Positions 1 to 62,317 of a stretch of DNA of 64,000 nucleotides are shown one piece after another; the stretch's first letter is position 1, and every line of letters begins with the position of its first letter. The stretch comes from a virus. The translations under genes and the position numbers were made by a program. The notes under the pieces were generated by a model, which saw nothing but the letters and a program-made list of their open reading frames with translations, had not been told where the DNA came from and ran no database searches. Location: IMG/VR virus record IMGVR_UViG_3300045988_162176, positions 1 through 64,000 of that record, one strand, 5' to 3'.

Positions 1-55
1 AAAAGATATATTGAGAAAAGATATATTGAGAAAAGATATATTGAGAAAAGATATA
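1..55. repeat. Tandem 15-nt direct repeat AAAAGATATATTGAG (about 3.6 copies, cut by window edge)
   Basis: Read at 1-15, 16-30, 31-45, partial 46-55. Last unit forms inverted repeat AAAGATATA (47-55) / TATATCTTT (71-79). Confidence 0.85.
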
Positions 56-106
56 AAGATGATTTATCCGTATATCTTTGTTATTAATTTGAAAGGAAGT
101 GTTTTT

Positions 107-1333
107 ATGGGTAGAAAAATAATTGATTTAACAGGTAAAGATTTTGGAATGTTTCATGTAGTAAAATAGAGTGAGAAAAAATATATTACAGAAAGTGGAC
201 ATTCATTAGTTTAGTGGGATTGTGTTGATAAAGATGGAAATGAATATAAATTATTAGCGCAATATTTAAAAACTTATCCTACTGAATATAATCCATATAA
301 TAAAAAAGGCCATACAGACTCTAAATATAAAAACAATAAAAATACTTGGGTTCAACAAAAAGTTAACTCTTGGAAAGAAAATAATACTACTGAAATTAAA
401 CATCAAAGAAAAAAATATGATTTAATTGGACAAGTCTTTGGAGATTGGGAAGTTCTTGAAGAAGGCGAACCATATCAAAATAAATCTACTATATATACTA
501 GACGTACATGGAGATGTGTTTGCCATCATATTTTAAACGATGGAACAGAATGTGGTAAAGTTGAAGATGTTATTGAAGCTAATCTTGTAAGAGGTAAAAG
601 TTCTTGTTGCAAAGATTGTGTAAAACTTATTTCTTCAAAGAAAATAGAAATTGGGTAGATTTATGGAAAATTAAAAGTTGTTGAGAAAATAACAAAGGAC
701 CCTACTTTAACTGATAGATAGTGTGAATGGTTGTGTGAATGCCAATGTATATTAAAGACAAAAGTAATTCGTTTTCGGAATGTGCTCTTAAGTTCTTCTT
801 CAGTTGGAAAAGCTTGTCATCAATTCGGATGTAATACTAATGAAGTCATAACTGATGAAAATGGAAATATTTTAAAAAGAAAATGTAAAATATGTGGAGA
901 AATGAAAGATGCTTCTTGTTTTAGAAGTTCGCTACAAGCAAGAAAAAATCCAGTATGCTTAGAATGCAATCCAAGGCATCCAGTTATACCAATGACTCCT
1001 GAAGAAAAAAGTCCTCATGAAAGATATAAATTTTATCAAAATCGAGCAAAAAGTAAGGATTGTGAATTGGAATTTACAGAAGAAGAATTTGATAAATTTA
1101 CTAAATAGCCATGTTTCTATTGTGGGGGATATTCTATTAGCAAACAATATCAAGATTAGTTTTGTGGAATAGATAGAGTTGATTCTAACAAAGGGTATTC
1201 AAAAGATAATTGTGTACCGTGCTGTTTTAGTTGTAATGTTATGAAAATGGGACTTGATGTTTATGATTTCTTGGACAAAGTAGAATTGATAAACAAGAAT
1301 CTGGATAATATTAAATAGGCTTTGGAAAAATAA
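107..1333 (+). CDS. HNH homing-type endonuclease, 408 aa if 7 in-frame TAG codons are sense
   Basis: ATG 107 follows GAAAGGAAG. One frame is free of TAA/TGA until TAA 1331-1333, with TAGs at 167, 212, 656, 719, 1106, 1157 and 1316. C-terminal CFYCGG...GIDRVDSNKGYSKDNCVPCCFSCNVMK HNH motif; three Cys-rich FG..L.V N-terminal modules. Confidence 0.8.
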
Positions 1334-2494: not shown

Positions 2495-2590
2495 TTCATA
2501 GAGTGCTTAGTGTGAATAAGCTCTCTGCTTAATTATGGATTACCTACATAGTCTATAATTAAGTACTAAATTACGAAAGGAGTGATGCAA

Positions 2591-2665
2591 ATGTAGAAAA
2601 TCACTTTTATTAATTACGCTCTCAACGTAGTTGGTATGATTATTTTGAAGAACCACAACTTCTAA
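2591..2665 (+). CDS. mini-ORF 1, MQKITFINYALNVVGMIILKNHNF (24 aa, TAG at codon 2)
   Basis: SD AAAGGAG 8 nt before ATG 2591, which is followed directly by TAG. Peptide aligns with 5 paralogous mini-ORFs. Confidence 0.55.
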
Positions 2666-2713
2666 GATAATTTTGTGCATTAAGAGGGTTGTGTAGGCAA
2701 TCCTCTCATTATC

Positions 2714-2742
2714 ATAATAACACATTTTAAAATGAATGTCAA
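2714..2742 (-). promoter_or_regulatory. antisense promoter TTGACA-N17-TATTAT with TGT extension (cassette 1)
   Basis: Minus-strand -35 at 2737-2742, -10 at 2714-2719, 17-nt spacer. Confidence 0.65.
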
Positions 2743-2776
2743 GGAAAAGACAATAAAACCAGAAAGGAAATGAAGC

Positions 2777-3248: not shown

Positions 3249-3308
3249 CTGTAGTGAATAAGGACCTACATCCTTGTTTGCTTCTATCAATCTTCAGGAG
3301 GTAAAATA

Positions 3309-3383
3309 ATGAAGAAAATCATTAGCATTAATTATTTCTTTAATGTTGTTGTAAGCATTATTCTCAAGAACTACAACTTCTAA
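3309..3383 (+). CDS. mini-ORF 2, MKKIISINYFFNVVVSIILKNYNF (24 aa, no TAG)
   Basis: SD AGGAGG 7 nt upstream of ATG; close paralog of mini-ORF 1. Confidence 0.55.
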   Translation: MKKIISINYFFNVVVSIILKNYNF

Positions 3384-3446
3384 TAAGATGTAATTAAATA
3401 TCCTTAATAAGAGAGGTGTGTAGGCACTTCTCTTATTCTAACAACA

Positions 3447-3475
3447 AGTATAACATATAAAGTTGTGCTTGTCAA
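3447..3475 (-). promoter_or_regulatory. antisense promoter TTGACA-N17-TATACT with TGT (cassette 2)
   Basis: -35 at 3470-3475, -10 at 3447-3452 on the minus strand. Confidence 0.65.
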
Positions 3476-3502
3476 GAGTTTTATAGAAAGGAATCAAAGA
3501 AG

Positions 3503-5408: not shown

Positions 5409-5499
5409 AATAGAGTGTTTAAGCCCAACTTATTCACTCACACATTAATTTAGCCTACAATAAATTAATGTCTTATTAAATTAGAAAGGAGTTTTTGCT

Positions 5500-5571
5500 A
5501 TGTAGAAAATCTTAGCAGTTGACTATTATTGGTCCACAGTAGTAGTCTTCATCATTTACAATCGTAATTAA
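5500..5571 (+). CDS. mini-ORF 3, MQKILAVDYYWSTVVVFIIYNRN (23 aa, TAG at codon 2)
   Basis: SD AAAGGAG 8 nt upstream of ATG-TAG. Stop codon lies inside the 10-bp hairpin CGTAATTAAT/ATTAATTACG. Confidence 0.55.
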
Positions 5572-5622
5572 TCCATATTAATTACGTCACAAGTAGAGAG
5601 TGTAGGCTTTCTACTTGTGTTT

Positions 5623-5651
5623 ATCTTAGCACACTTGATAATATCTGTCAA
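5623..5651 (-). promoter_or_regulatory. antisense promoter TTGACA-N17-TAAGAT with TGC (cassette 3)
   Basis: -35 at 5646-5651, -10 at 5623-5628 on the minus strand. Confidence 0.6.
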
Positions 5652-5697
5652 GTGGTAATTACAAACATTTTTTGATTTATGAAAGGAATTTAGAATT

Positions 5698-6630: not shown

Positions 6631-6638
6631 AAGAAAAG

Positions 6639-6668
6639 AGACTGATAGCTGTCCAAACTACCAGTCTC
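6639..6668. terminator. Bidirectional stem-loop GAGACTG/CAGTCTC (cassette 4)
   Basis: 7-bp stem; TTTTCTTTT on the minus strand after the stem. Confidence 0.55.
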
Positions 6669-6732
6669 ATTTAAGACACCAGACTCCTGTAAAGTCTGTT
6701 TACATAATTACTCACAGAAAGGAGTATATCAC

Positions 6733-6804
6733 ATGAAAAAATATCTTTATGTCGATATGGTTGCATAGGTTTTTGCAATCAGAGTCCTCTACAACAGGAA
6801 TTAA
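6733..6804 (+). CDS. mini-ORF 4, MKKYLYVDMVAQVFAIRVLYNRN (23 aa, TAG at codon 12)
   Basis: SD AAAGGAG 8 nt upstream of ATG. C-terminal YNRN shared with mini-ORFs 3 and 5, with Arg coded by AGG here and CGT there. Confidence 0.55.
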
Positions 6805-6873
6805 TGAAATAATCGGGGACTAAAACCTACACTCGTCAAGTAAAAGTTACAGGCTACCTTGCTTGATGAGTGT

Positions 6874-6902
6874 AATATAACACAAACAACAACACTTGTC
6901 AA
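6874..6902 (-). promoter_or_regulatory. antisense promoter TTGACA-N17-TATATT with TGT (cassette 4)
   Basis: -35 at 6897-6902, -10 at 6874-6879 on the minus strand. Confidence 0.6.
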
Positions 6903-6959
6903 GTACTTTGTAAAAATTTCTTTTAAATACTTGACACCATTAAGAAAGGAAAGTATAAT

Positions 6960-11630: not shown

Positions 11631-11705
11631 TTCTTGATATAAGCATTTCCTATAAACTGTTTATATAATTTACCCCTTGTCTAAGGAGGAAAGGAGTTGA
11701 AAGCC

Positions 11706-11777
11706 ATGTAGAGAATCTTCTATGTTGATTATTTCTATGCTATTGTGTAGATAATGGTCATCTATAATCGTAATTAA
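11706..11777 (+). CDS. mini-ORF 5, MQRIFYVDYFYAIVQIMVIYNRN (23 aa, TAG at codons 2 and 15)
   Basis: Double SD AAGGAGGAAAGGAG upstream of ATG-TAG; stop inside hairpin GTAATTAAT/ATTAATTAC. Confidence 0.55.
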
Positions 11778-11849
11778 TCTAGGACATTAATTACAAAACT
11801 ACACAGATGGTAGTTAAGAAGTATAGGATTCTTTCTATCATCTGTGTAT

Positions 11850-11878
11850 ATATTAACACACAACATCAATCTTGTCAA
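11850..11878 (-). promoter_or_regulatory. antisense promoter TTGACA-N17-TAATAT with TGT (cassette 5)
   Basis: -35 at 11873-11878, -10 at 11850-11855 on the minus strand. Confidence 0.6.
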
Positions 11879-11919
11879 GTAGTTTCTAATATTTAATTTA
11901 CTTTATTTGGTTTAAATAC

Positions 11920-11948
11920 TTGACAAACACGGATTTGAGATTTATAAT
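11920..11948 (+). promoter_or_regulatory. plus-strand promoter TTGACA-N17-TATAAT, divergent from the cassette 5 promoter
   Basis: -35 at 11920-11925, -10 at 11943-11948. About 80-nt leader to ATG 12029. The only clear sigma70-type plus-strand promoter seen in the plus block. Confidence 0.6.
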
Positions 11949-15383: not shown

Positions 15384-15587
15384 ATGATTACCTTAGTAGA
15401 AAATCTTAGTGGCGCTTTGGTCGATTTTGAAGCATCTATTCCCTTCATGGATGACTATATCAGAGAAATGGTTCATAGCATGGGTGACTACAAAACTGAC
15501 CAAGAATTCTTTACTGCTTATGAAGAAGCCCATGCGCTGTTGAAAAAAGAACCATGGGAACTTTCTAAAACTAATCCAACTTATTAA
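15384..15587 (+). CDS. hypothetical protein (67 aa)
   Basis: Start moved to ATG 15384 after SD GAAAGGAG. Confidence 0.7.
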   Translation: MITLVENLSGALVDFEASIPFMDDYIREMVHSMGDYKTDQEFFTAYEEAHALLKKEPWELSKTNPTY

Positions 15588-20388: not shown

Positions 20389-20465
20389 TATCTAAAACTC
20401 CAGCCCCGTAAGCTGTTCATATAAATGAAACCCTTGTCTTAAGGAAGAAAAGGAGATGAAAGACC

Positions 20466-20546
20466 ATGTAGAAAATCAAATAGATAAACTACAAATTTAA
20501 CATTTATTACTTCGTGATAGTGTTAACAGGTTTCCTTGAGCTATAA
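20466..20546 (+). CDS. mini-ORF 6, MQKIKQINYKFNIYYFVIVLTGFLEL (26 aa, TAG at codons 2 and 6)
   Basis: SD AAAGGAG upstream of ATG-TAG; stop inside hairpin GTTTCCTT/AAGGAAAC; most diverged family member. Confidence 0.5.
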
Positions 20547-20606
20547 GGAAACTAAAACCTAATACACATAGGGTTGAGAGGTTACGGGTCTCTTAACTCT
20601 ATGTGT

Positions 20607-20635
20607 ATTGTAACATATCAACACAACTTTGTCAA
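20607..20635 (-). promoter_or_regulatory. antisense promoter TTGACA-N17-TACAAT with TGT (cassette 6)
   Basis: -35 at 20630-20635, -10 at 20607-20612 on the minus strand. Confidence 0.6.
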
Positions 20636-20659
20636 GTATTTTAAGAAAGGAATTTTGCT

Positions 20660-29419: not shown

Positions 29420-29448
29420 ATTATAACAAAATGCCTGTAGCTTGTCAA
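29420..29448 (-). promoter_or_regulatory. promoter TTGACA-N17-TATAAT with TGT
   Basis: -35 at 29443-29448, -10 at 29420-29425 on the minus strand, upstream of 28928-29383. Confidence 0.7.
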
Positions 29449-29877
29449 GAGTTTAATAACTTTTCTTGACTTGCTACAGACATTGGGCAACTTTAGTTGC
29501 TGTGGATTTCTTTAGGTTGTATAAAGCATACTTGAGCAATAGATATACAACTAAACAAAATTATGGATTAATTATATATTAATTACTTATAAATTTCGTT
29601 CTGTTTTTTGTTGCATCATCATTTAGGTAAAAGTATACTACTAATTTTTAGTAGCTTTGTACTTTTGTAATGTAATGTATTTATTATAATTAAATTGTTT
29701 TCTGTTTTTTTGCTTTATTTGTTATTTCTTTTTAATTTAATTATAATTATAATTACTTTTCAGCCTGAATTTAATTTAGCATTCCAAAGGTTAAATTATA
29801 CTCAGACCGTACTCAAGTCCTAAGCTTGCTTACAAATAAATTATATTATTATAAATCTTTAACTTTATTAAAACCTA

Positions 29878-30960: not shown

Positions 30961-30989
30961 ATTATAACATAGGAAGAAGATGTTGTCAA
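30961..30989 (-). promoter_or_regulatory. promoter TTGACA-N17-TATAAT with TGT
   Basis: -35 at 30984-30989, -10 at 30961-30966 on the minus strand, upstream of 29878-30834. Confidence 0.7.
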
Positions 30990-31223
30990 GAAGTTAATGA
31001 AATTTTGGTTACAGATTGTTACTTTTTGGACATTGAAGTGGGCATTGAAGTGAAAAATGCTAATTTTTGAGTATTTAGGGGTGGTTTGTTTGGATTATGA
31101 ACAAATTATGAATTTTTTGTAAATTTTTTTGAAAAAAAGATTGTGTTTGTGCCTACCTCTCTTTACCTAAAAGAGCACCAGAATGGGAAAATGGGCAAAA
31201 TTGGCCTTCGGTACGTCAGGGCT

Positions 31224-35494: not shown

Positions 35495-36886
35495 TCAATT
35501 TTTATCCTGATAGTTTTTAATTTTTGTCCATGATTTATTAAACAAATCTTCCCATATAGAATTTTTTTCAGTAAGATTAGAAGAAAGAGAATTAAAATTT
35601 TGAGGAATAAGCTTATCTAAGTTAAGTTGAATAAGGTCTTTATTTAACTTTTCATATAAGAAAGTTTCATAATATTGCGAAAGTTGAAAAGCTTCCTCTT
35701 CTTTTTTGTCAATAAAATAAACAGTTCCATCAGGTTGATTGATAACATTTCTTGAATTTGGTATTTCTTTAGCTTGTCTACTCTTTTTTAATTTAGAAAT
35801 TTTCTTTTGAGTTTCTTTATTATTAGTAGTTAAATTCTTTTTTAATAATACATCATCAATATCAGAAGTTTGTTTATAAAGAGATGCACATACAGCAATA
35901 TGTTCAGTAGAATATCTAATTAAATAAGATGGATAAGCAAACAAAGCACCAAGATTAATGATAAGAGAGTGGGTTAATTTCTTTTGAAATTCTTTTAATA
36001 ACCCTTTTTCTAAAATATCAGAATAACCTTTACAATTATACTCAGCAAAGATTTTACCGCGAATATTAACAAAAGTATTTAATTCATTTGGTTTTAAAGG
36101 TCTTTCTTTGTAGGTAACTAATAAAGGCGATTTATCTTTTAATGGTAAATAAAAATTACCATCTTCTTCATATATAGTTGAATAATCAGCATTAAAAGGA
36201 AGTCTATCTTTTTCTATAAATCCACCAACAAATACATCTTGAGGAAAAATAACTCCATCTTTTTCTAATTTATCAATAATAGTTTCTATTTGATAAAAAT
36301 TTTGTTTAGAAGTATGAGAATCATAATCGTCTAAAAGATTTTGAGTTCTTTTAGTTATATTATGAGCAGTTTCTTTGTTATTTCTTAATTCACGGATTTC
36401 TTTTTTAGGTTGAGTAACAAAAGGATATTTTGAATCTCTTAAATTTAAAGTATATTCTTCTAAGCGTCTACCATAAGAATAAGGAGAAAAATGAAATTGT
36501 TTATAATTTTCATTTTGTAATCCTATTGCAATAGCTAAGTCTCCTTTAGACATACAAAGATTTTCTCTTTTAGTATACTAACCATATACATTAAGAAAAG
36601 CGCAAAAAATCCATATAGCTGTATTTTGATATAATTCTTTTGCAACAGCACGATAATATTCATCAGGAGGAACTATTTTAATACAGGTAAATTTATCCTT
36701 GTTCTTTCTCCAAGTAAAACATTTCTTCCAATTTTCTAATTGTTTTTTCTAAAATTTCTTTTGCGATGGAGAAGAATAATTAGGTTCATCAAGTAGCTTG
36801 CAAAGTTCTTTATAGCTATTGACGGTGGAAACATTAGATAGTTTTTCCTAAACTCTAAGATAAAGGCTCTATTTCTAATCAGCCAT
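35495..36886 (-). CDS. hypothetical protein (463 aa) with 5 in-frame TAG codons in the first 103 codons
   Basis: ATG 36886 after SD AAAGGAG. The frame joins the 352-aa track ORF when TAG at codons 4, 6, 13, 46 and 103 is sense. Confidence 0.65.
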
Positions 36887-36954
36887 AAATTATCTCCTTT
36901 ACATAAGTAGTATTAATAGTTGCACAATATGGCGAATTCTATTAATCCATATAT

Positions 36955-36983
36955 AGTGTAACATATAAAAATCAAGCTGTCAA
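36955..36983 (-). promoter_or_regulatory. promoter TTGACA-N17-TACACT with TGT
   Basis: -35 at 36978-36983, -10 at 36955-36960 on the minus strand. Confidence 0.6.
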
Positions 36984-37074
36984 GTACAATTTAAAATAAA
37001 AAACAAACTTGTTTATCCGATATGAGATAAACAAGTTTAAAATAAGTTATGAAAATAGTTTAAAATAATGTTTA

Positions 37075-61019: not shown

Positions 61020-61200
61020 AGAAATTGAAATCCTTACGGATAATTCTTACTGCTTCATAATATATGCTTTCACGATTATAAATAATCCGCTATTCGCAGG
61101 TCCTTGTATATTCCACAGTCGTAAATTCCCGAAATAGCCTTCGGTACATACTTATGATTGCTTAATTATACAATTTCATAAGTTAAAGCATCTCTCAAAT
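61020..61200 (-). ncRNA. candidate TnpB guide RNA (omega/reRNA) scaffold
   Basis: Overlaps the tnpB 3' end and the 150-nt ORF-free tail. Minus-sense hairpins CCGAA..TTCGG, GATTAT..ATAATC and ATCC-GTAA-GGAT. Confidence 0.4.
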
Positions 61201-62317
61201 TAAGACTTGCATTGAAATCTCTATCTGCAATATAACCACATGAACAGTAGTATACTCTGTCTGAAAGTTTTAAGTCTTTATTAATATTACCACAACAATG
61301 ACATAATTTAGAAGAGGGATAAAATCTATCTACAATTCTTAATTCAATATCATTTTCGGCACATTTAACTTTTAATTTTGTTCTAAATTCATAAAACTTT
61401 TGTGCGGCAATAGCTTTTGAAAGATACTTATTCTTCATCATACCTGATATATCTAAATTTTCAATAGTTATATAAGATGGCTTGGTTTTTACTATCTCAG
61501 CTATTATTTTATTGATATAATCAGTTCGAATATTAGTTATTTTATGATAAAGTTTTTGTACTTTAAGTTTTTGTTTTTGTATATTTTTTTGAGTGCTGCC
61601 TCCTTTCTTAAAATTTTCATATTTACGAGAAAGACATCGTTGTTCTCTTCGTAATTGTTTTTCTATTTTTTTTATTTCCCTTGATTTGTTGATATTTTTA
61701 TATATTTTACCATTTGAAATAACGGCAAAATCTTTCAAACCCAAATCAATTCCTATACCTTCATTAAAATTGTGCGCAATTTGAATATTTGGCATCTCTA
61801 CTAAAACAGATACAAAATATTTATTTGCTTTAATAGATACTGTGCCGCTCTTAATTTTCAAACCGCTTTTAGATACTGGTATATAACCTTTTTCTTTTAA
61901 ACGAACCCATCCCAAACTTGGAATTTTAATTCTATGTCTTTCACAAAGACAATCGGTTAAATTATTTTTAACAAAATACATTTTTACATCAGATTTTCCT
62001 TTTTTCTTAAATTTAGGATAACCTGATTGATGTTTAAAAAATTTTGTAAAAGCAGCATATCCATCTTCAATAGATTTTTTTACTGCTTTTGAATATACTT
62101 CTTTAATCCATATTTTGTCAGGATTGTTTGGAATATATTCATTATTAAGCCATAAACTAAAACTTTTTCCTGTTACAAATTTTTTATTTCGGTCATATAA
62201 TTCTTTATTATAAGACAAATAAAAATTGTAAATATATCTACAAGTCCCAATTGTTTTATTAATTTGAATCTTTTGTTCTTTTGTTGGATTTATTTCCGTT
62301 TTAAAACTTTTTAACAT
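61166..62317 (-). CDS. tnpB: TnpB RNA-guided nuclease (IS605 OrfB family, 383 aa)
   Basis: GIDLGLKDF, ITIENL and ADRDFNASLNL RuvC-like D/E/D motifs with a CHCCG...CSCG zinc finger. No in-frame TAG. Confidence 0.85.
   Translation of the reverse strand: MLKSFKTEINPTKEQKIQINKTIGTCRYIYNFYLSYNKELYDRNKKFVTGKSFSLWLNNEYIPNNPDKIWIKEVYSKAVKKSIEDGYAAFTKFFKHQSGYPKFKKKGKSDVKMYFVKNNLTDCLCERHRIKIPSLGWVRLKEKGYIPVSKSGLKIKSGTVSIKANKYFVSVLVEMPNIQIAHNFNEGIGIDLGLKDFAVISNGKIYKNINKSREIKKIEKQLRREQRCLSRKYENFKKGGSTQKNIQKQKLKVQKLYHKITNIRTDYINKIIAEIVKTKPSYITIENLDISGMMKNKYLSKAIAAQKFYEFRTKLKVKCAENDIELRIVDRFYPSSKLCHCCGNINKDLKLSDRVYYCSCGYIADRDFNASLNLRDALTYEIV

What the first reader, a model, noticed from the sequence alone, without database searches (positions are those of the whole stretch)
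6680..6874. Hairpin A and hairpin B loops are complementary, and the loop sequences co-vary between cassette copies
Seen: in every cassette the loop of the hairpin upstream of the mini-ORF is the reverse complement of a segment in the loop of the downstream hairpin. The sequence differs between copies. Copy 1: CCTACA (2543-2548) with TGTAGG (2692-2697). Copy 2: CCTACA (3265-3270) with TGTAGG (3419-3424). Copy 3: GCCTACA (5453-5459) with TGTAGGC (5601-5607). Copy 4: CCTGTAA (6686-6692) with TTACAGG (6847-6853). Copy 5: CCTATA (11649-11654) with TATAGG (11822-11827). Copy 6: CCCGTAA (20405-20411) with TTACGGG (20582-20588). The stems also differ in sequence while the architecture is kept. The copy 5 and 6 upstream stems are weak (6 AT pairs and 4 bp). 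Inference: this is a loop-loop (kissing) contact enclosing the SD and mini-ORF. The same downstream loop is also the perfect target of the 5' hairpin of the antisense RNA, so cis and trans partners would compete, as in kissing-loop antisense control of plasmid copy number.
Basis: partly seen in the sequence, partly recalled or inferred. Interest (0 to 1): 0.85.

Follow-up and report, generated by a model that had tools for sequence, protein, structure and literature searches.

The report
Matched hairpin loops around phage micro-gene
A repeated 250-base module in the early region of a large gut phage holds a tiny gene flanked by two RNA hairpins whose loop sequences stay complementary as they change, so the loops almost certainly pair to control that gene.

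Summary
It also holds outside the window.

- **Scale.** I collected 271 distinct homologous cassettes from related metagenomic contigs. About 90% keep a 6-8 nt Watson-Crick match between the loop of hairpin A and the loop of hairpin B.
- **Covariation.** There are nine loop sequence types and at least 13 independent coordinated switches. G-U pairs are almost absent from the core.
- **Antisense promoter.** It is conserved and belongs to the promoter class that drives the element's own genes.
- **Mini-ORF.** It is a real gene for a 23-26 residue peptide under purifying selection. In-frame TAG appears at codon 2 and at codon 12 or 15, where relatives have Gln codons. Two other genes in the window also carry in-frame TAG, so this looks like an amber-recoded phage of about 214 kb.

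Best reading: a type I toxin-antitoxin-like micro-gene, guarded by an antisense RNA and gated by TAG. Hairpin A is a cis copy of the antisense RNA's recognition loop and kisses loop B.

Not shown: which strand carries the contact, whether cis and trans partners compete, and whether the peptide is toxic. No Rfam or Pfam family, cultured phage or plasmid matches.

The parts
6638..6668 (-). c4 upstream hairpin T0, an intrinsic terminator oriented for the minus strand; probable 3' end of the antisense RNA
   Evidence: 13-bp stem followed by TTTTCTTTT on the minus strand. Across relatives, 31 such hairpins are minus-type and none is plus-type.
6680..6698 (+). c4 hairpin A: stem CAGACT/AGTCTG, 7-nt loop CCTGTAA (6686-6692)
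6720..6724 (+). c4 Shine-Dalgarno AGGAG
   Evidence: Invariant in alignment A1 and nearly invariant in A2.
6733..6804 (+). c4 mini-ORF, 23 codons plus TAA, with in-frame TAG at 6766-6768 (MKKYLYVDMVA*VFAIRVLYNRN)
   Evidence: TAG aligns with CAA/CAG in paralogs. Codon-position and synonymous-change patterns indicate coding selection.
6829..6873 (+). c4 hairpin B: long stem with a G-U pair on the plus strand; loop holds TTACAGG (6847-6853)
6874..6903 (-). c4 antisense promoter CTTGACA-N17-TATATT with TG extension
6931..6959 (+). Forward consensus promoter TTGACA-17-TATAAT that starts the next plus-strand operon; c4 therefore sits at an operon end
2528..2563 (+). c1 hairpin A, loop CCTACA (2543-2548)
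2591..2665 (+). c1 mini-ORF, with TAG at codon 2
2684..2707 (+). c1 hairpin B, loop TGTAGG (2692-2697)
2714..2743 (-). c1 antisense promoter
3260..3275 (+). c2 hairpin A, loop CCTACA (3265-3270)
3309..3383 (+). c2 mini-ORF; the only copy in the window without TAG
3406..3437 (+). c2 hairpin B, loop TGTAGG (3419-3424)
3447..3476 (-). c2 antisense promoter
5442..5471 (+). c3 hairpin A, loop GCCTACAA (core 5453-5459)
5500..5571 (+). c3 mini-ORF, with TAG at codon 2
5588..5619 (+). c3 hairpin B, loop TGTAGGC (5601-5607)
5623..5652 (-). c3 antisense promoter
11637..11666 (+). c5 hairpin A (weak stem), loop with TCCTATA (core 11649-11654)
11706..11777 (+). c5 mini-ORF, with TAG at codons 2 and 15
11801..11847 (+). 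c5 hairpin B, loop TATAGGA (core 11822-11827)
11850..11879 (-). c5 antisense promoter
20401..20415 (+). c6 hairpin A: 4-bp stem CAGC/GCTG, loop CCCGTAA (20405-20411)
20466..20546 (+). c6 mini-ORF, with TAG at codons 2 and 6
20564..20606 (+). c6 hairpin B with two G-U pairs on the plus strand, loop TTACGGG (20582-20588)
20607..20636 (-). c6 antisense promoter

Best explanation
Each cassette is a small regulatory module of the type I toxin-antitoxin kind. It sits in the plus-strand early or anti-defence operons of a large gut phage of about 214 kb that appears to be amber-recoded.

**Parts on the sense RNA.** The sense (operon) RNA carries hairpin A, a Shine-Dalgarno sequence, a 23-26 codon gene, a hairpin over its stop codon, and the long hairpin B.

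**The antisense RNA.** A constitutive promoter of the phage's own class sits immediately downstream and fires backwards. The 5' hairpin of the resulting antisense RNA is the complement of hairpin B. Its loop (CCYRYA in most copies) therefore has the same sequence as loop A. In many cassettes this RNA runs across the whole module to a minus-oriented terminator.

**The contact.** Loops A and B form a 6-8 bp kissing helix. In several copies the whole A loop is consumed, as in TAR/TAR* or ColE1 loops.

**Proposed mechanism.**
- In the sense RNA the kiss closes a domain of about 150 nt around the ribosome-binding site and the micro-gene.
- The kiss also occupies loop B, which is the nucleation site for the antisense RNA. 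Hairpin A thus acts as a cis-encoded mimic of the antitoxin's recognition loop, and the two compete for B.
- Translation has a second lock: TAG at codon 2, and often at codon 12 or 15. The peptide is made only once amber suppression is established.

**Shown:** the pairing constraint, the conserved promoter, selection on the coding sequence, and the plus-strand bias of hairpin B.

**Inferred:** which RNA carries the kiss, the competition, reading of TAG as Gln, and the activity of the peptide.
For: **Pairing constraint.**
- Exact matches in 6 of 6 window copies.
- 239 of 271 relatives have the CC-type match, and six more have matches in unrelated loop sequences.
- Cognate pairs reach 81% against 22% for non-cognate pairs.
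- Three or four core pairs change on both sides with almost no breaks.
- At least 13 independent switches.
- Both loops are accessible.

**Antisense promoter.** It is invariant in alignments A1 and A2. The scan finds it in all six copies with a TG extension. It is in the same class as the promoters of the 28-64 kb gene clusters.

**Support for the sense strand.**
- Hairpin B has 192 G-U pairs on the plus strand against 77 that would be G-U on the minus strand.
- It is 4.7 kcal/mol more stable on the plus strand in 99 of 101 cassettes.
- Its 3' arm abuts the -10 box, so its outer 3-6 bp cannot be part of the antisense RNA.
- Rare wobble intermediates in the kissing core are G-U on the plus strand in four cassettes (L176, L249, L225, L204) and G-U on the minus strand in one (L131).
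- Forward promoters lie only at operon starts, so operon RNA contains hairpin A.

**Support for a cis contact.** Several cassettes in one genome share a loop type, so the variation looks like compensated drift rather than orthogonal addressing.

**The micro-gene is real.**
- 100 of 102 are intact at 22-26 codons if TAG is read as sense.
- All 83 internal stops in the ORF alignment are TAG; none is TAA or TGA.
- Variation by codon position runs 3 > 1 > 2.
- Single-nucleotide synonymous differences number 5016 against 3287 non-synonymous.
- TAG alternates with CAA/CAG.

**TAG is sense elsewhere in the element.** See 2-1333 and 35495-36889. The collection's gene caller lists a 408-residue product across the first region.
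Against: - There are no transcript data. The sense 5' end, the antisense 3' end and the relative abundances are unknown.
- By symmetry the same kiss can form in the antisense RNA, which contains both complements where the minus-type terminator T0 exists. Hairpin A shows no strand bias.
- Seventeen of 271 cassettes keep the ORF and promoter but lack the match, so the contact is not indispensable.
- The peptides have only a hydrophobic core of about 9-10 residues. They match no toxin family, so the word 'toxin' is an analogy.
- No suppressor tRNA was found in the window or in the flanks I could reach.
- Nested-structure predictors cannot score a kissing contact, and RNAalifold on the MAFFT alignment returned nothing.
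Confidence: 0.5

Rival explanations
1. The functional kiss is in the minus-strand RNA. A non-coding RNA of about 240 nt starts at the conserved promoter and ends at the minus-oriented terminator T0. It pairs its 5' hairpin loop (B') with its 3'-proximal hairpin loop (A'). This closes the RNA for stability or masks its recognition loop. The sense-strand complementarity would then be a mirror image. A variant is that both RNAs use the contact.
For: - The promoter is conserved and of a proven class.
- When hairpin T0 is a canonical terminator, it is always minus-type: 31 against 0.
- G-U is nearly absent from the core, about 0.3% against 12% in the hairpin B stems. That is expected if the helix must be Watson-Crick on both strands.
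- One intermediate, L131, is G-U only on the minus strand.
- Hairpin A has no strand bias.
Against: - Hairpin B is much weaker on the minus strand and is truncated by the predicted start site.
- Four of the five wobble intermediates are valid only on the plus strand.
- Half of the cassettes have no recognisable terminator before or after A', so A' may often lie in a heterogeneous 3' tail.
Confidence: 0.2
2. The cassette is a leader-peptide riboregulator for the downstream gene rather than a toxin module. Ribosomes terminate at codon 2 (TAG) early in infection and read through once amber suppression is on. That remodels hairpins C and B and the A:B contact, and switches expression of the next gene. 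The cassette would be a sensor of the code switch.
For: - Each cassette lies directly upstream of a gene.
- Four of the six window cassettes have no forward promoter between the cassette and that gene.
- TAG occupies fixed positions, codons 2 and 12 or 15.
- The stop codon lies inside a conserved palindromic hairpin.
- The C-terminus next to the stop is conserved (YNRN, KHRN, KNYNF), as in arrest peptides.
Against: - c4 and c5 are followed by perfect forward promoters, so the next gene does not depend on read-through.
- By inspection of c3 I found no alternative antiterminator pairing between hairpin C and hairpin B.
- Hairpin B mostly lacks a U-tract.
- The whole peptide is under purifying selection, not just the regulatory codons.
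- This model gives no role to a strong convergent antisense promoter.
Confidence: 0.15
3. The complementarity acts at the DNA level. The two loop motifs would be short inverted repeats used by a recombinase or by single-strand hairpin processing. The cassettes would then be mobile regulatory cassettes that shuffle early genes, like PeSL elements of T4-type phages or IS200/IS605-derived elements.
For: - Gene content between cassettes is mosaic among relatives, and homology breakpoints fall in the 3' part of a cassette.
- A TnpB gene is present in the window.
- G-U is absent from the core.
Against: - The repeat is only 6-8 nt, it sits precisely in hairpin loops, and the flanking stems are not complementary to each other.
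- A protein site would not drift through nine sequence types while staying self-complementary.
- The cassettes are syntenic among relatives and no target duplications were seen.
- Mosaic breakpoints are explained more simply by homologous recombination between similar cassettes.
Confidence: 0.05

Closest known systems
hok/sok (fbi fold-back) and Helicobacter AapA1/IsoA1 type I toxin-antitoxin systems
   Same: A small ORF whose mRNA is locked by a 5'-3' long-distance contact. An antisense RNA from a convergent promoter recognises the mRNA through loop-loop contacts. Local helices sequester the SD or AUG (my own knowledge; AapA1 in PMC5416894).
   Different: Here the long-distance contact is a 6-8 bp kiss between two hairpin loops, not an extended helix. 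The 5' partner has the same loop sequence as the antisense RNA. The ORF is additionally gated by TAG codons. The host element is a phage. There is no sequence homology.
Ibs/Sib of E. coli
   Same: Multi-copy diverged cassettes with a peptide of about 20 residues and an antisense RNA that covers the whole ORF. Paralogs are told apart by short recognition domains (my own knowledge).
   Different: Ibs/Sib has no reported intramolecular loop-loop contact and no stop-codon gating. It is chromosomal and proteobacterial, and it is not homologous.
ColE1 RNA I/RNA II and R1 CopA/CopT kissing-loop antisense control
   Same: Fully complementary 6-7 nt hairpin loops nucleate the RNA-RNA recognition. Loop sequence defines specificity, and both sides change together.
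   Different: Those are trans contacts that control replication. Here there is an extra cis partner, and nothing links the cassettes to a replicon.
c4 antisense RNA of phages P1 and P7
   Same: An upstream hairpin encoded on the same strand has loop bases complementary to a downstream target on the same transcript. Covarying differences set the specificity (my own knowledge; not retrieved from the library).
   Different: c4 is processed out of the transcript and blocks a ribosome-binding site. Here the target is the loop of a hairpin downstream of the ORF, and a true antisense RNA is also present.
PeSL (promoter-early stem-loop) cassettes of T4-type phages
   Same: Repeated intergenic cassettes with a promoter and a stem-loop in a hyperplastic early region. 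They coincide with mosaic breakpoints (my own knowledge).
   Different: The promoter here points backwards. The cassette also encodes a conserved peptide and a covarying loop pair.

Membership tests
Type I toxin-antitoxin system | Small protein-coding gene (under 60 aa) that is really translated | tested here: met
   ORFs of 22-26 codons are intact in 100 of 102 cassettes if TAG is sense. Codon-position and synonymous/non-synonymous patterns indicate coding selection. Translation itself was not observed.
Type I toxin-antitoxin system | The peptide is toxic, usually hydrophobic and membrane-active | not testable with these tools
   The hydrophobic core is only about 9-10 residues (for example NVVVVIVL), and some paralogs are charged (DMDRQISVIR).
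Type I toxin-antitoxin system | Antisense RNA gene overlapping the toxin mRNA | tested here: met
   A minus-strand CTTGACA-N17-TGnTAnnnT promoter is conserved in all copies. The minus strand has no conserved ORF. Expression was not observed.
Type I toxin-antitoxin system | Homology to a described toxin or antitoxin family | tested here: not met
   No Pfam hit at E up to 10 for ten peptides. No Rfam family at the gathering threshold or at E up to 5.
Kissing-loop RNA contact | Two hairpin loops with Watson-Crick complementarity, both single-stranded in the secondary structure | tested here: met
Kissing-loop RNA contact | Compensatory covariation across homologs | tested here: met
Kissing-loop RNA contact | Physical formation of the complex | not testable with these tools
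   This needs probing, gel shift or NMR.
Plasmid copy-number antisense control (ColE1/R1 type) | The target RNA is a replication primer or a rep mRNA leader | tested here: not met
   The cassettes lie between small early genes, PcfJ-like, DUF932 and ParB-like genes. No replication initiator or origin is adjacent.
Amber-recoded (code-15-like) phage | Genes with multiple in-frame TAG and no other in-frame stops | tested here: met
   Window 2-1333 has 7 TAG in 443 codons and an HNH-like motif. Window 35495-36889 has 5 TAG. TAG is the terminal stop of only 3 of 92 long ORFs.
Amber-recoded (code-15-like) phage | Suppressor tRNA-CUA or a release-factor gene in the genome | tested here: inconclusive
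   No tRNA in the 64-kb window or in about 20 kb of flanks. About 130 kb of the source contig could not be fetched.

The most novel reading that the evidence does not exclude
The cassettes are a new class of phage timing device. A toxic or lysis-related micro-peptide would be held off by three stacked locks: an antisense RNA, a cis hairpin that mimics the antisense RNA's recognition loop by kissing the target loop, and an amber codon at position 2 that is read only after the phage has switched the cell's genetic code. The module would then report or enforce the code switch. The loop pair would be a freely reprogrammable 6-8 nt address, already seen in nine versions in nature.
Probability: 0.25. 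Interest if true: 0.85.

Novelty: new variant of a known kind. Interest (0 to 1): 0.78.

Why it matters
**RNA control.** If the contact works as proposed, it adds a new control logic to antisense and type I systems: a cis-encoded mimic of the antitoxin loop. Natural compensatory variants are already available as a ready-made mutant series.

**Stop-codon recoding.** The cassettes tie small regulatory ORFs to stop-codon recoding in gut phages. They give a concrete set of early-region genes that can only be translated after the code switch. That makes the proposed 'recoding as a timer' idea (bioRxiv 10.1101/2021.08.26.457843) directly testable on a 250-nt module.

**Engineering.** The programmable kissing pair is also attractive for building orthogonal RNA devices.

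**Annotation.** Standard-code gene callers and Rfam miss the whole module, although it occurs five to ten times per genome in a phage lineage seen in many human gut samples.

Tried and rejected
**Searches that found nothing**
- Rfam at the gathering threshold and at permissive E-values: no family for the cassette.
- BLAST of the region against cultured phages and plasmids: no match. DUF932 protein hits are only distant, below 31% identity.
- GTDB representative genomes: no relative of the neighbouring ParB-like protein. The DNA-pattern scan returned mostly chance hits plus one true divergent contig, L045.
- Suppressor tRNA: not found in any DNA I could reach. One exact-protein look-up at the window end found nothing.

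**Analyses that gave no answer**
- Genome-wide recoding judged from ORF lengths: no clear signal. Per-gene inspection was needed instead.
- A naive longest-complement search between 70-90 nt flanks was too noisy in this AT-rich DNA: non-cognate pairs gave 6-7 nt. I replaced it with loop-restricted tests.
- MAFFT put some loop groups 2 nt out of register, and RNAalifold on that alignment predicted no pairs.

**Ideas I rejected**
- A sense-strand sigma-70 promoter between T0 and the SD. There is no conserved -35/-10 there. The conserved CTGTTTAYATA after hairpin A does not fit a promoter (reading).
- Hairpin B' as an intrinsic terminator that would make a short antisense RNA of about 50 nt. Only 11% of cassettes have a run of at least four A before hairpin B.
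- A minus-strand ORF. None is conserved.
- Conjugative leading-region single-strand promoters (Frpo-like), which I considered because of the PcfJ and DUF932 genes. The hairpins do not rebuild -35/-10 boxes, and the element has phage-like features and in-frame TAG.

Full report
**1. The observation**

Extending the register shows a Watson-Crick core of 6-8 nt in each copy, with nothing consistent beyond it. In minimum-free-energy folds of both strands the two motifs sit in hairpin loops. With long-range pairs excluded, the mean unpaired probability is 0.94 for the A core and 0.76 for the B core, against 0.39 for all positions. In c1, c2, c4 and c6 the loop of hairpin A consists only of the complementary bases. 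That is the geometry of classical kissing hairpins. The six cassettes are homologous at about 54% identity. The invariant blocks are the Shine-Dalgarno sequence, the ATG and the motif TARCAYA-N12-TGTCAAG.

**2. The surroundings**

- The window is part of a 214-kb human-gut metagenomic contig, ERZ27296301 k119_55060. Loci L007 and L136 are identical to it.
- Close relatives occur in many samples on contigs of 155-220 kb, and as IMG/VR viral contigs.
- Positions 1-28 kb form a plus-strand array of small genes. It includes two PcfJ-like proteins, a DUF932 protein, a ParB-like DUF6551 protein and, in relatives, an AcrIC5-like protein.
- Positions 28-64 kb are transcribed on the minus strand.
- Just left of the window lies a 912-residue protein with the PF05183 RNA-polymerase fold.
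- Nothing similar exists among cultured phages, plasmids or GTDB representative genomes, apart from one divergent 28-kb contig, L045.

**3. Promoters**

All six cassettes carry a minus-strand TTGACA-17-TAnnnT promoter with a TG extension, directly abutting hairpin B. The extended motif CTTGACA-N17-TAnnnT occurs 17 times in the window against 0.23 expected.
- Nine sites head the minus-strand gene clusters of 28-64 kb.
- Two sites are forward promoters in the plus array, at 6930 and 11919. Two more forward sites lie left of the window.
- Six sites are the cassette antisense promoters.

The antisense promoters therefore belong to a class that the element uses for real genes. The plus array falls into four operons. 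c4 and c5 sit at operon ends, and c1-c3 and c6 are internal, so operon RNA necessarily contains hairpin A.

The GC-rich hairpin just upstream of hairpin A (T0) is a canonical terminator only in the minus orientation. This holds for 31 cassettes, and none is plus-oriented. In those cassettes the antisense RNA probably spans the whole module, about 240 nt. Only 11% of cassettes have an A-run before hairpin B, so a short one-hairpin antisense RNA is not the rule. The minus strand has no conserved ORF.

**4. The mini-ORF is a real gene that contains TAG**

Five of the six window copies have in-frame TAG, four of them at codon 2. I examined 102 distinct relatives.
- 100 have an intact ORF of 22-26 codons if TAG is read through. 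All 83 internal stops in the ORF alignment are TAG, and none is TAA or TGA. In the other two frames TAA dominates.
- Differences by codon position run 3 > 1 > 2. Among codons that differ at a single nucleotide, 5016 changes are synonymous and 3287 are not.
- The TAG positions are fixed: codon 2, and codon 12 or 15. At those positions paralogs carry CAA or CAG, which points to Gln.

Two other genes in the window also need TAG as a sense codon. The region 2-1333 has seven TAG in 443 codons and an HNH-type motif. The region 35495-36889 has five TAG. The collection's own gene call gives a 408-residue product across the first region. TAG ends only 3 of 92 long ORFs.

This fits the amber-recoded large gut phages described in bioRxiv 10.1101/2021.08.26.457843, which reports clades of about 150-210 kb. 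I did not find a suppressor tRNA, but I could only read about 84 of the 214 kb.

**5. Covariation with homologs**

I collected cassettes with an nhmmer profile from all fetched loci, including a metagenome scan.
- Of 271 distinct anchored cassettes, 239 have a CCNNNN hexamer in the A region whose exact complement lies in the B region.
- The six CC-type hexamers are CCTACA, CCTATA, CCTGTA, CCCGTA, CCCACA and CCTGCA. That is six of the eight possible Y-R-Y combinations.
- Two small subfamilies carry unrelated loops that still match: TCCGTG/CACGGA and GCTCGAAC/GTTCGAGC.
- A motif-blind test on RNAfold hairpin loops finds at least 6 nt of complement in 81% of cognate pairs. Random non-cognate pairs reach this in 22% of cases, and non-cognate pairs of different type in 8%.
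- On 124 distinct loop pairs, the count of structure pairs gives three core pairs with 30, 45 and 64 cells changed on both sides and one broken cell each. It also finds a change on both sides in one of the two 'invariant' C-G pairs. The covariation score is 0.421 against 0.202 for shuffles (0 of 500 as high), and the signal collapses when the partner is slid.
- A neighbour-joining tree of the remainder of the cassette requires at least 13 independent loop-type switches.
- Several cassettes in one genome share a type. The variation therefore looks like compensated drift under a pairing constraint, not selection for orthogonal addresses.
- Seventeen cassettes lack the match.

**6. Which strand?**

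Because an antisense RNA exists, the A:B complementarity is mirrored as B':A' on the minus strand.

Points that favour the sense RNA:
- Hairpin B has 192 plus-strand G-U pairs against 77 of the opposite kind, and is on average 4.7 kcal/mol more stable on the plus strand in 99 of 101 cassettes.
- Its 3' arm ends at or inside the -10 box, beyond the predicted antisense start.
- Four rare wobble intermediates in the core are G-U only on the plus strand (L176, L249, L225, L204), against one on the minus strand (L131).

Points that keep the antisense RNA in play:
- The terminators are minus-oriented.
- Hairpin A shows no strand bias.
- G-U is nearly absent from the core, about 0.3% against 12% in the hairpin B stems. 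That would be expected if the helix must hold on both strands.

I rate the sense-RNA kiss as the most likely reading and keep the antisense or dual reading as the main rival.

**7. Mechanism and comparison**

The architecture combines:
- a small conserved ORF;
- SD or AUG sequestered in local helices;
- a stop-codon hairpin;
- a convergent antisense promoter;
- multi-copy diverged paralogs.

That is the architecture of type I toxin-antitoxin loci such as hok/sok, AapA1/IsoA1 and Ibs/Sib. No sequence family matches, and toxicity is untested.

Three things differ from the known systems:
- The 5'-3' lock is a loop-loop kiss rather than a helix.
- The 5' partner copies the recognition loop of the antisense RNA, so cis and trans partners would compete for loop B.
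- The ORF carries an amber lock.

Rival readings are a leader-peptide sensor of the code switch and a DNA-level recombination signal. They are weighed in the rival entries. The first is weakened by the forward promoters after c4 and c5. The second is weakened by the loop-restricted, drifting 6-8 nt match.

**8. Verdict**

The strand, the competition and the peptide's role remain to be shown. The module is undescribed as far as the libraries searched here can tell. It is best classed as a new variant of antisense-controlled small-ORF systems, with an unexpected link to stop-codon recoding.

Noticed in passing
window 2-1333 (+) and 35495-36889 (-): Two genes are open only if TAG is read as a sense codon. 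The first is a Cys-rich HNH-type protein with 7 in-frame TAG. The second is a 112-codon N-terminal extension with 5 TAG. The element looks amber-recoded. No suppressor tRNA was found in the DNA I could reach.
   Followed up: partly
window, 17 sites, e.g. 29420-29449(-), 30961-30990(-), 36955-36984(-), 6930-6959(+), 11919-11948(+): One promoter class, CTTGACA-N17-(TG)nTAnnnT, occurs 17 times against 0.23 expected. It heads the minus-strand gene clusters, four plus-strand operons and all six cassette antisense RNAs. Together with strong Shine-Dalgarno sites it suggests a Firmicute-type host, although the divergent relative L045 is binned as Bacteroidaceae.
   Followed up: partly
window 6893-6942 and 11869-11931: At c4 and c5 the antisense -35 box and the -35 box of the next forward promoter are arms of an inverted repeat (TTGTCAAGTA ... 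TACTTGACA). The nearly palindromic CTTGTCAAG is more conserved than a -35 box needs to be. It may be an operator for a dimeric regulator.
   Followed up: no
window 6696-6709, 11661-11672, 20413-20424 and relatives: A conserved CTGTTTAYATA follows hairpin A in many subfamilies. It is complementary, with one G-U, to the TATGTAGA start-codon region. It could be an anti-start element. Covariation was not tested, and cassettes with other start contexts do not fit clearly.
   Followed up: no
window 5563-5586 (c3), 11770-11796 (c5), 20530-20553 (c6): A third hairpin (C) spans the mini-ORF stop codon, for example CGTAATTAAT-CCAT-ATTAATTACG. It is a perfect palindrome in several copies.
   Followed up: no
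window 61047-61119 (-) and 61166-62317 (-): A RAGATH-18 RNA (Rfam RF03064, 59.9 bits) lies directly downstream of an IS605 OrfB/TnpB gene. The element is absent from related contigs L138 and L140, so it is a recent insertion.
   Followed up: partly
L007 7040 (= window 2737) against L004, L001, L006: Relatives are mosaic in the early region. A homology block starts in the promoter end of cassette c1 in three comparisons, which suggests that cassettes act as recombination joints for shuffling early genes.
   Followed up: partly
L136 125-2863 (-), about 5.6 kb left of the window: A 912-residue protein with the PF05183 (RdRP / YonO-like two-barrel RNA polymerase) fold is encoded divergently from the plus-strand early array.
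   Followed up: no
window about 15384-15587 (+): By offset from L007, this small ORF corresponds to the gene that carries a PF22147 AcrIC5 (anti-CRISPR) hit in relatives. That supports reading the plus array as an anti-defence region.
   Followed up: no
L016, L028, L004, L005, L009 upstream of c5-type cassettes: An extra hairpin of type B (CTAAAGAGGATTGTATAGGCAATTCTCTTTAG, loop TGTATAGGC) stands alone upstream of a complete cassette. It looks like a remnant or a tandem partial cassette.
   Followed up: no
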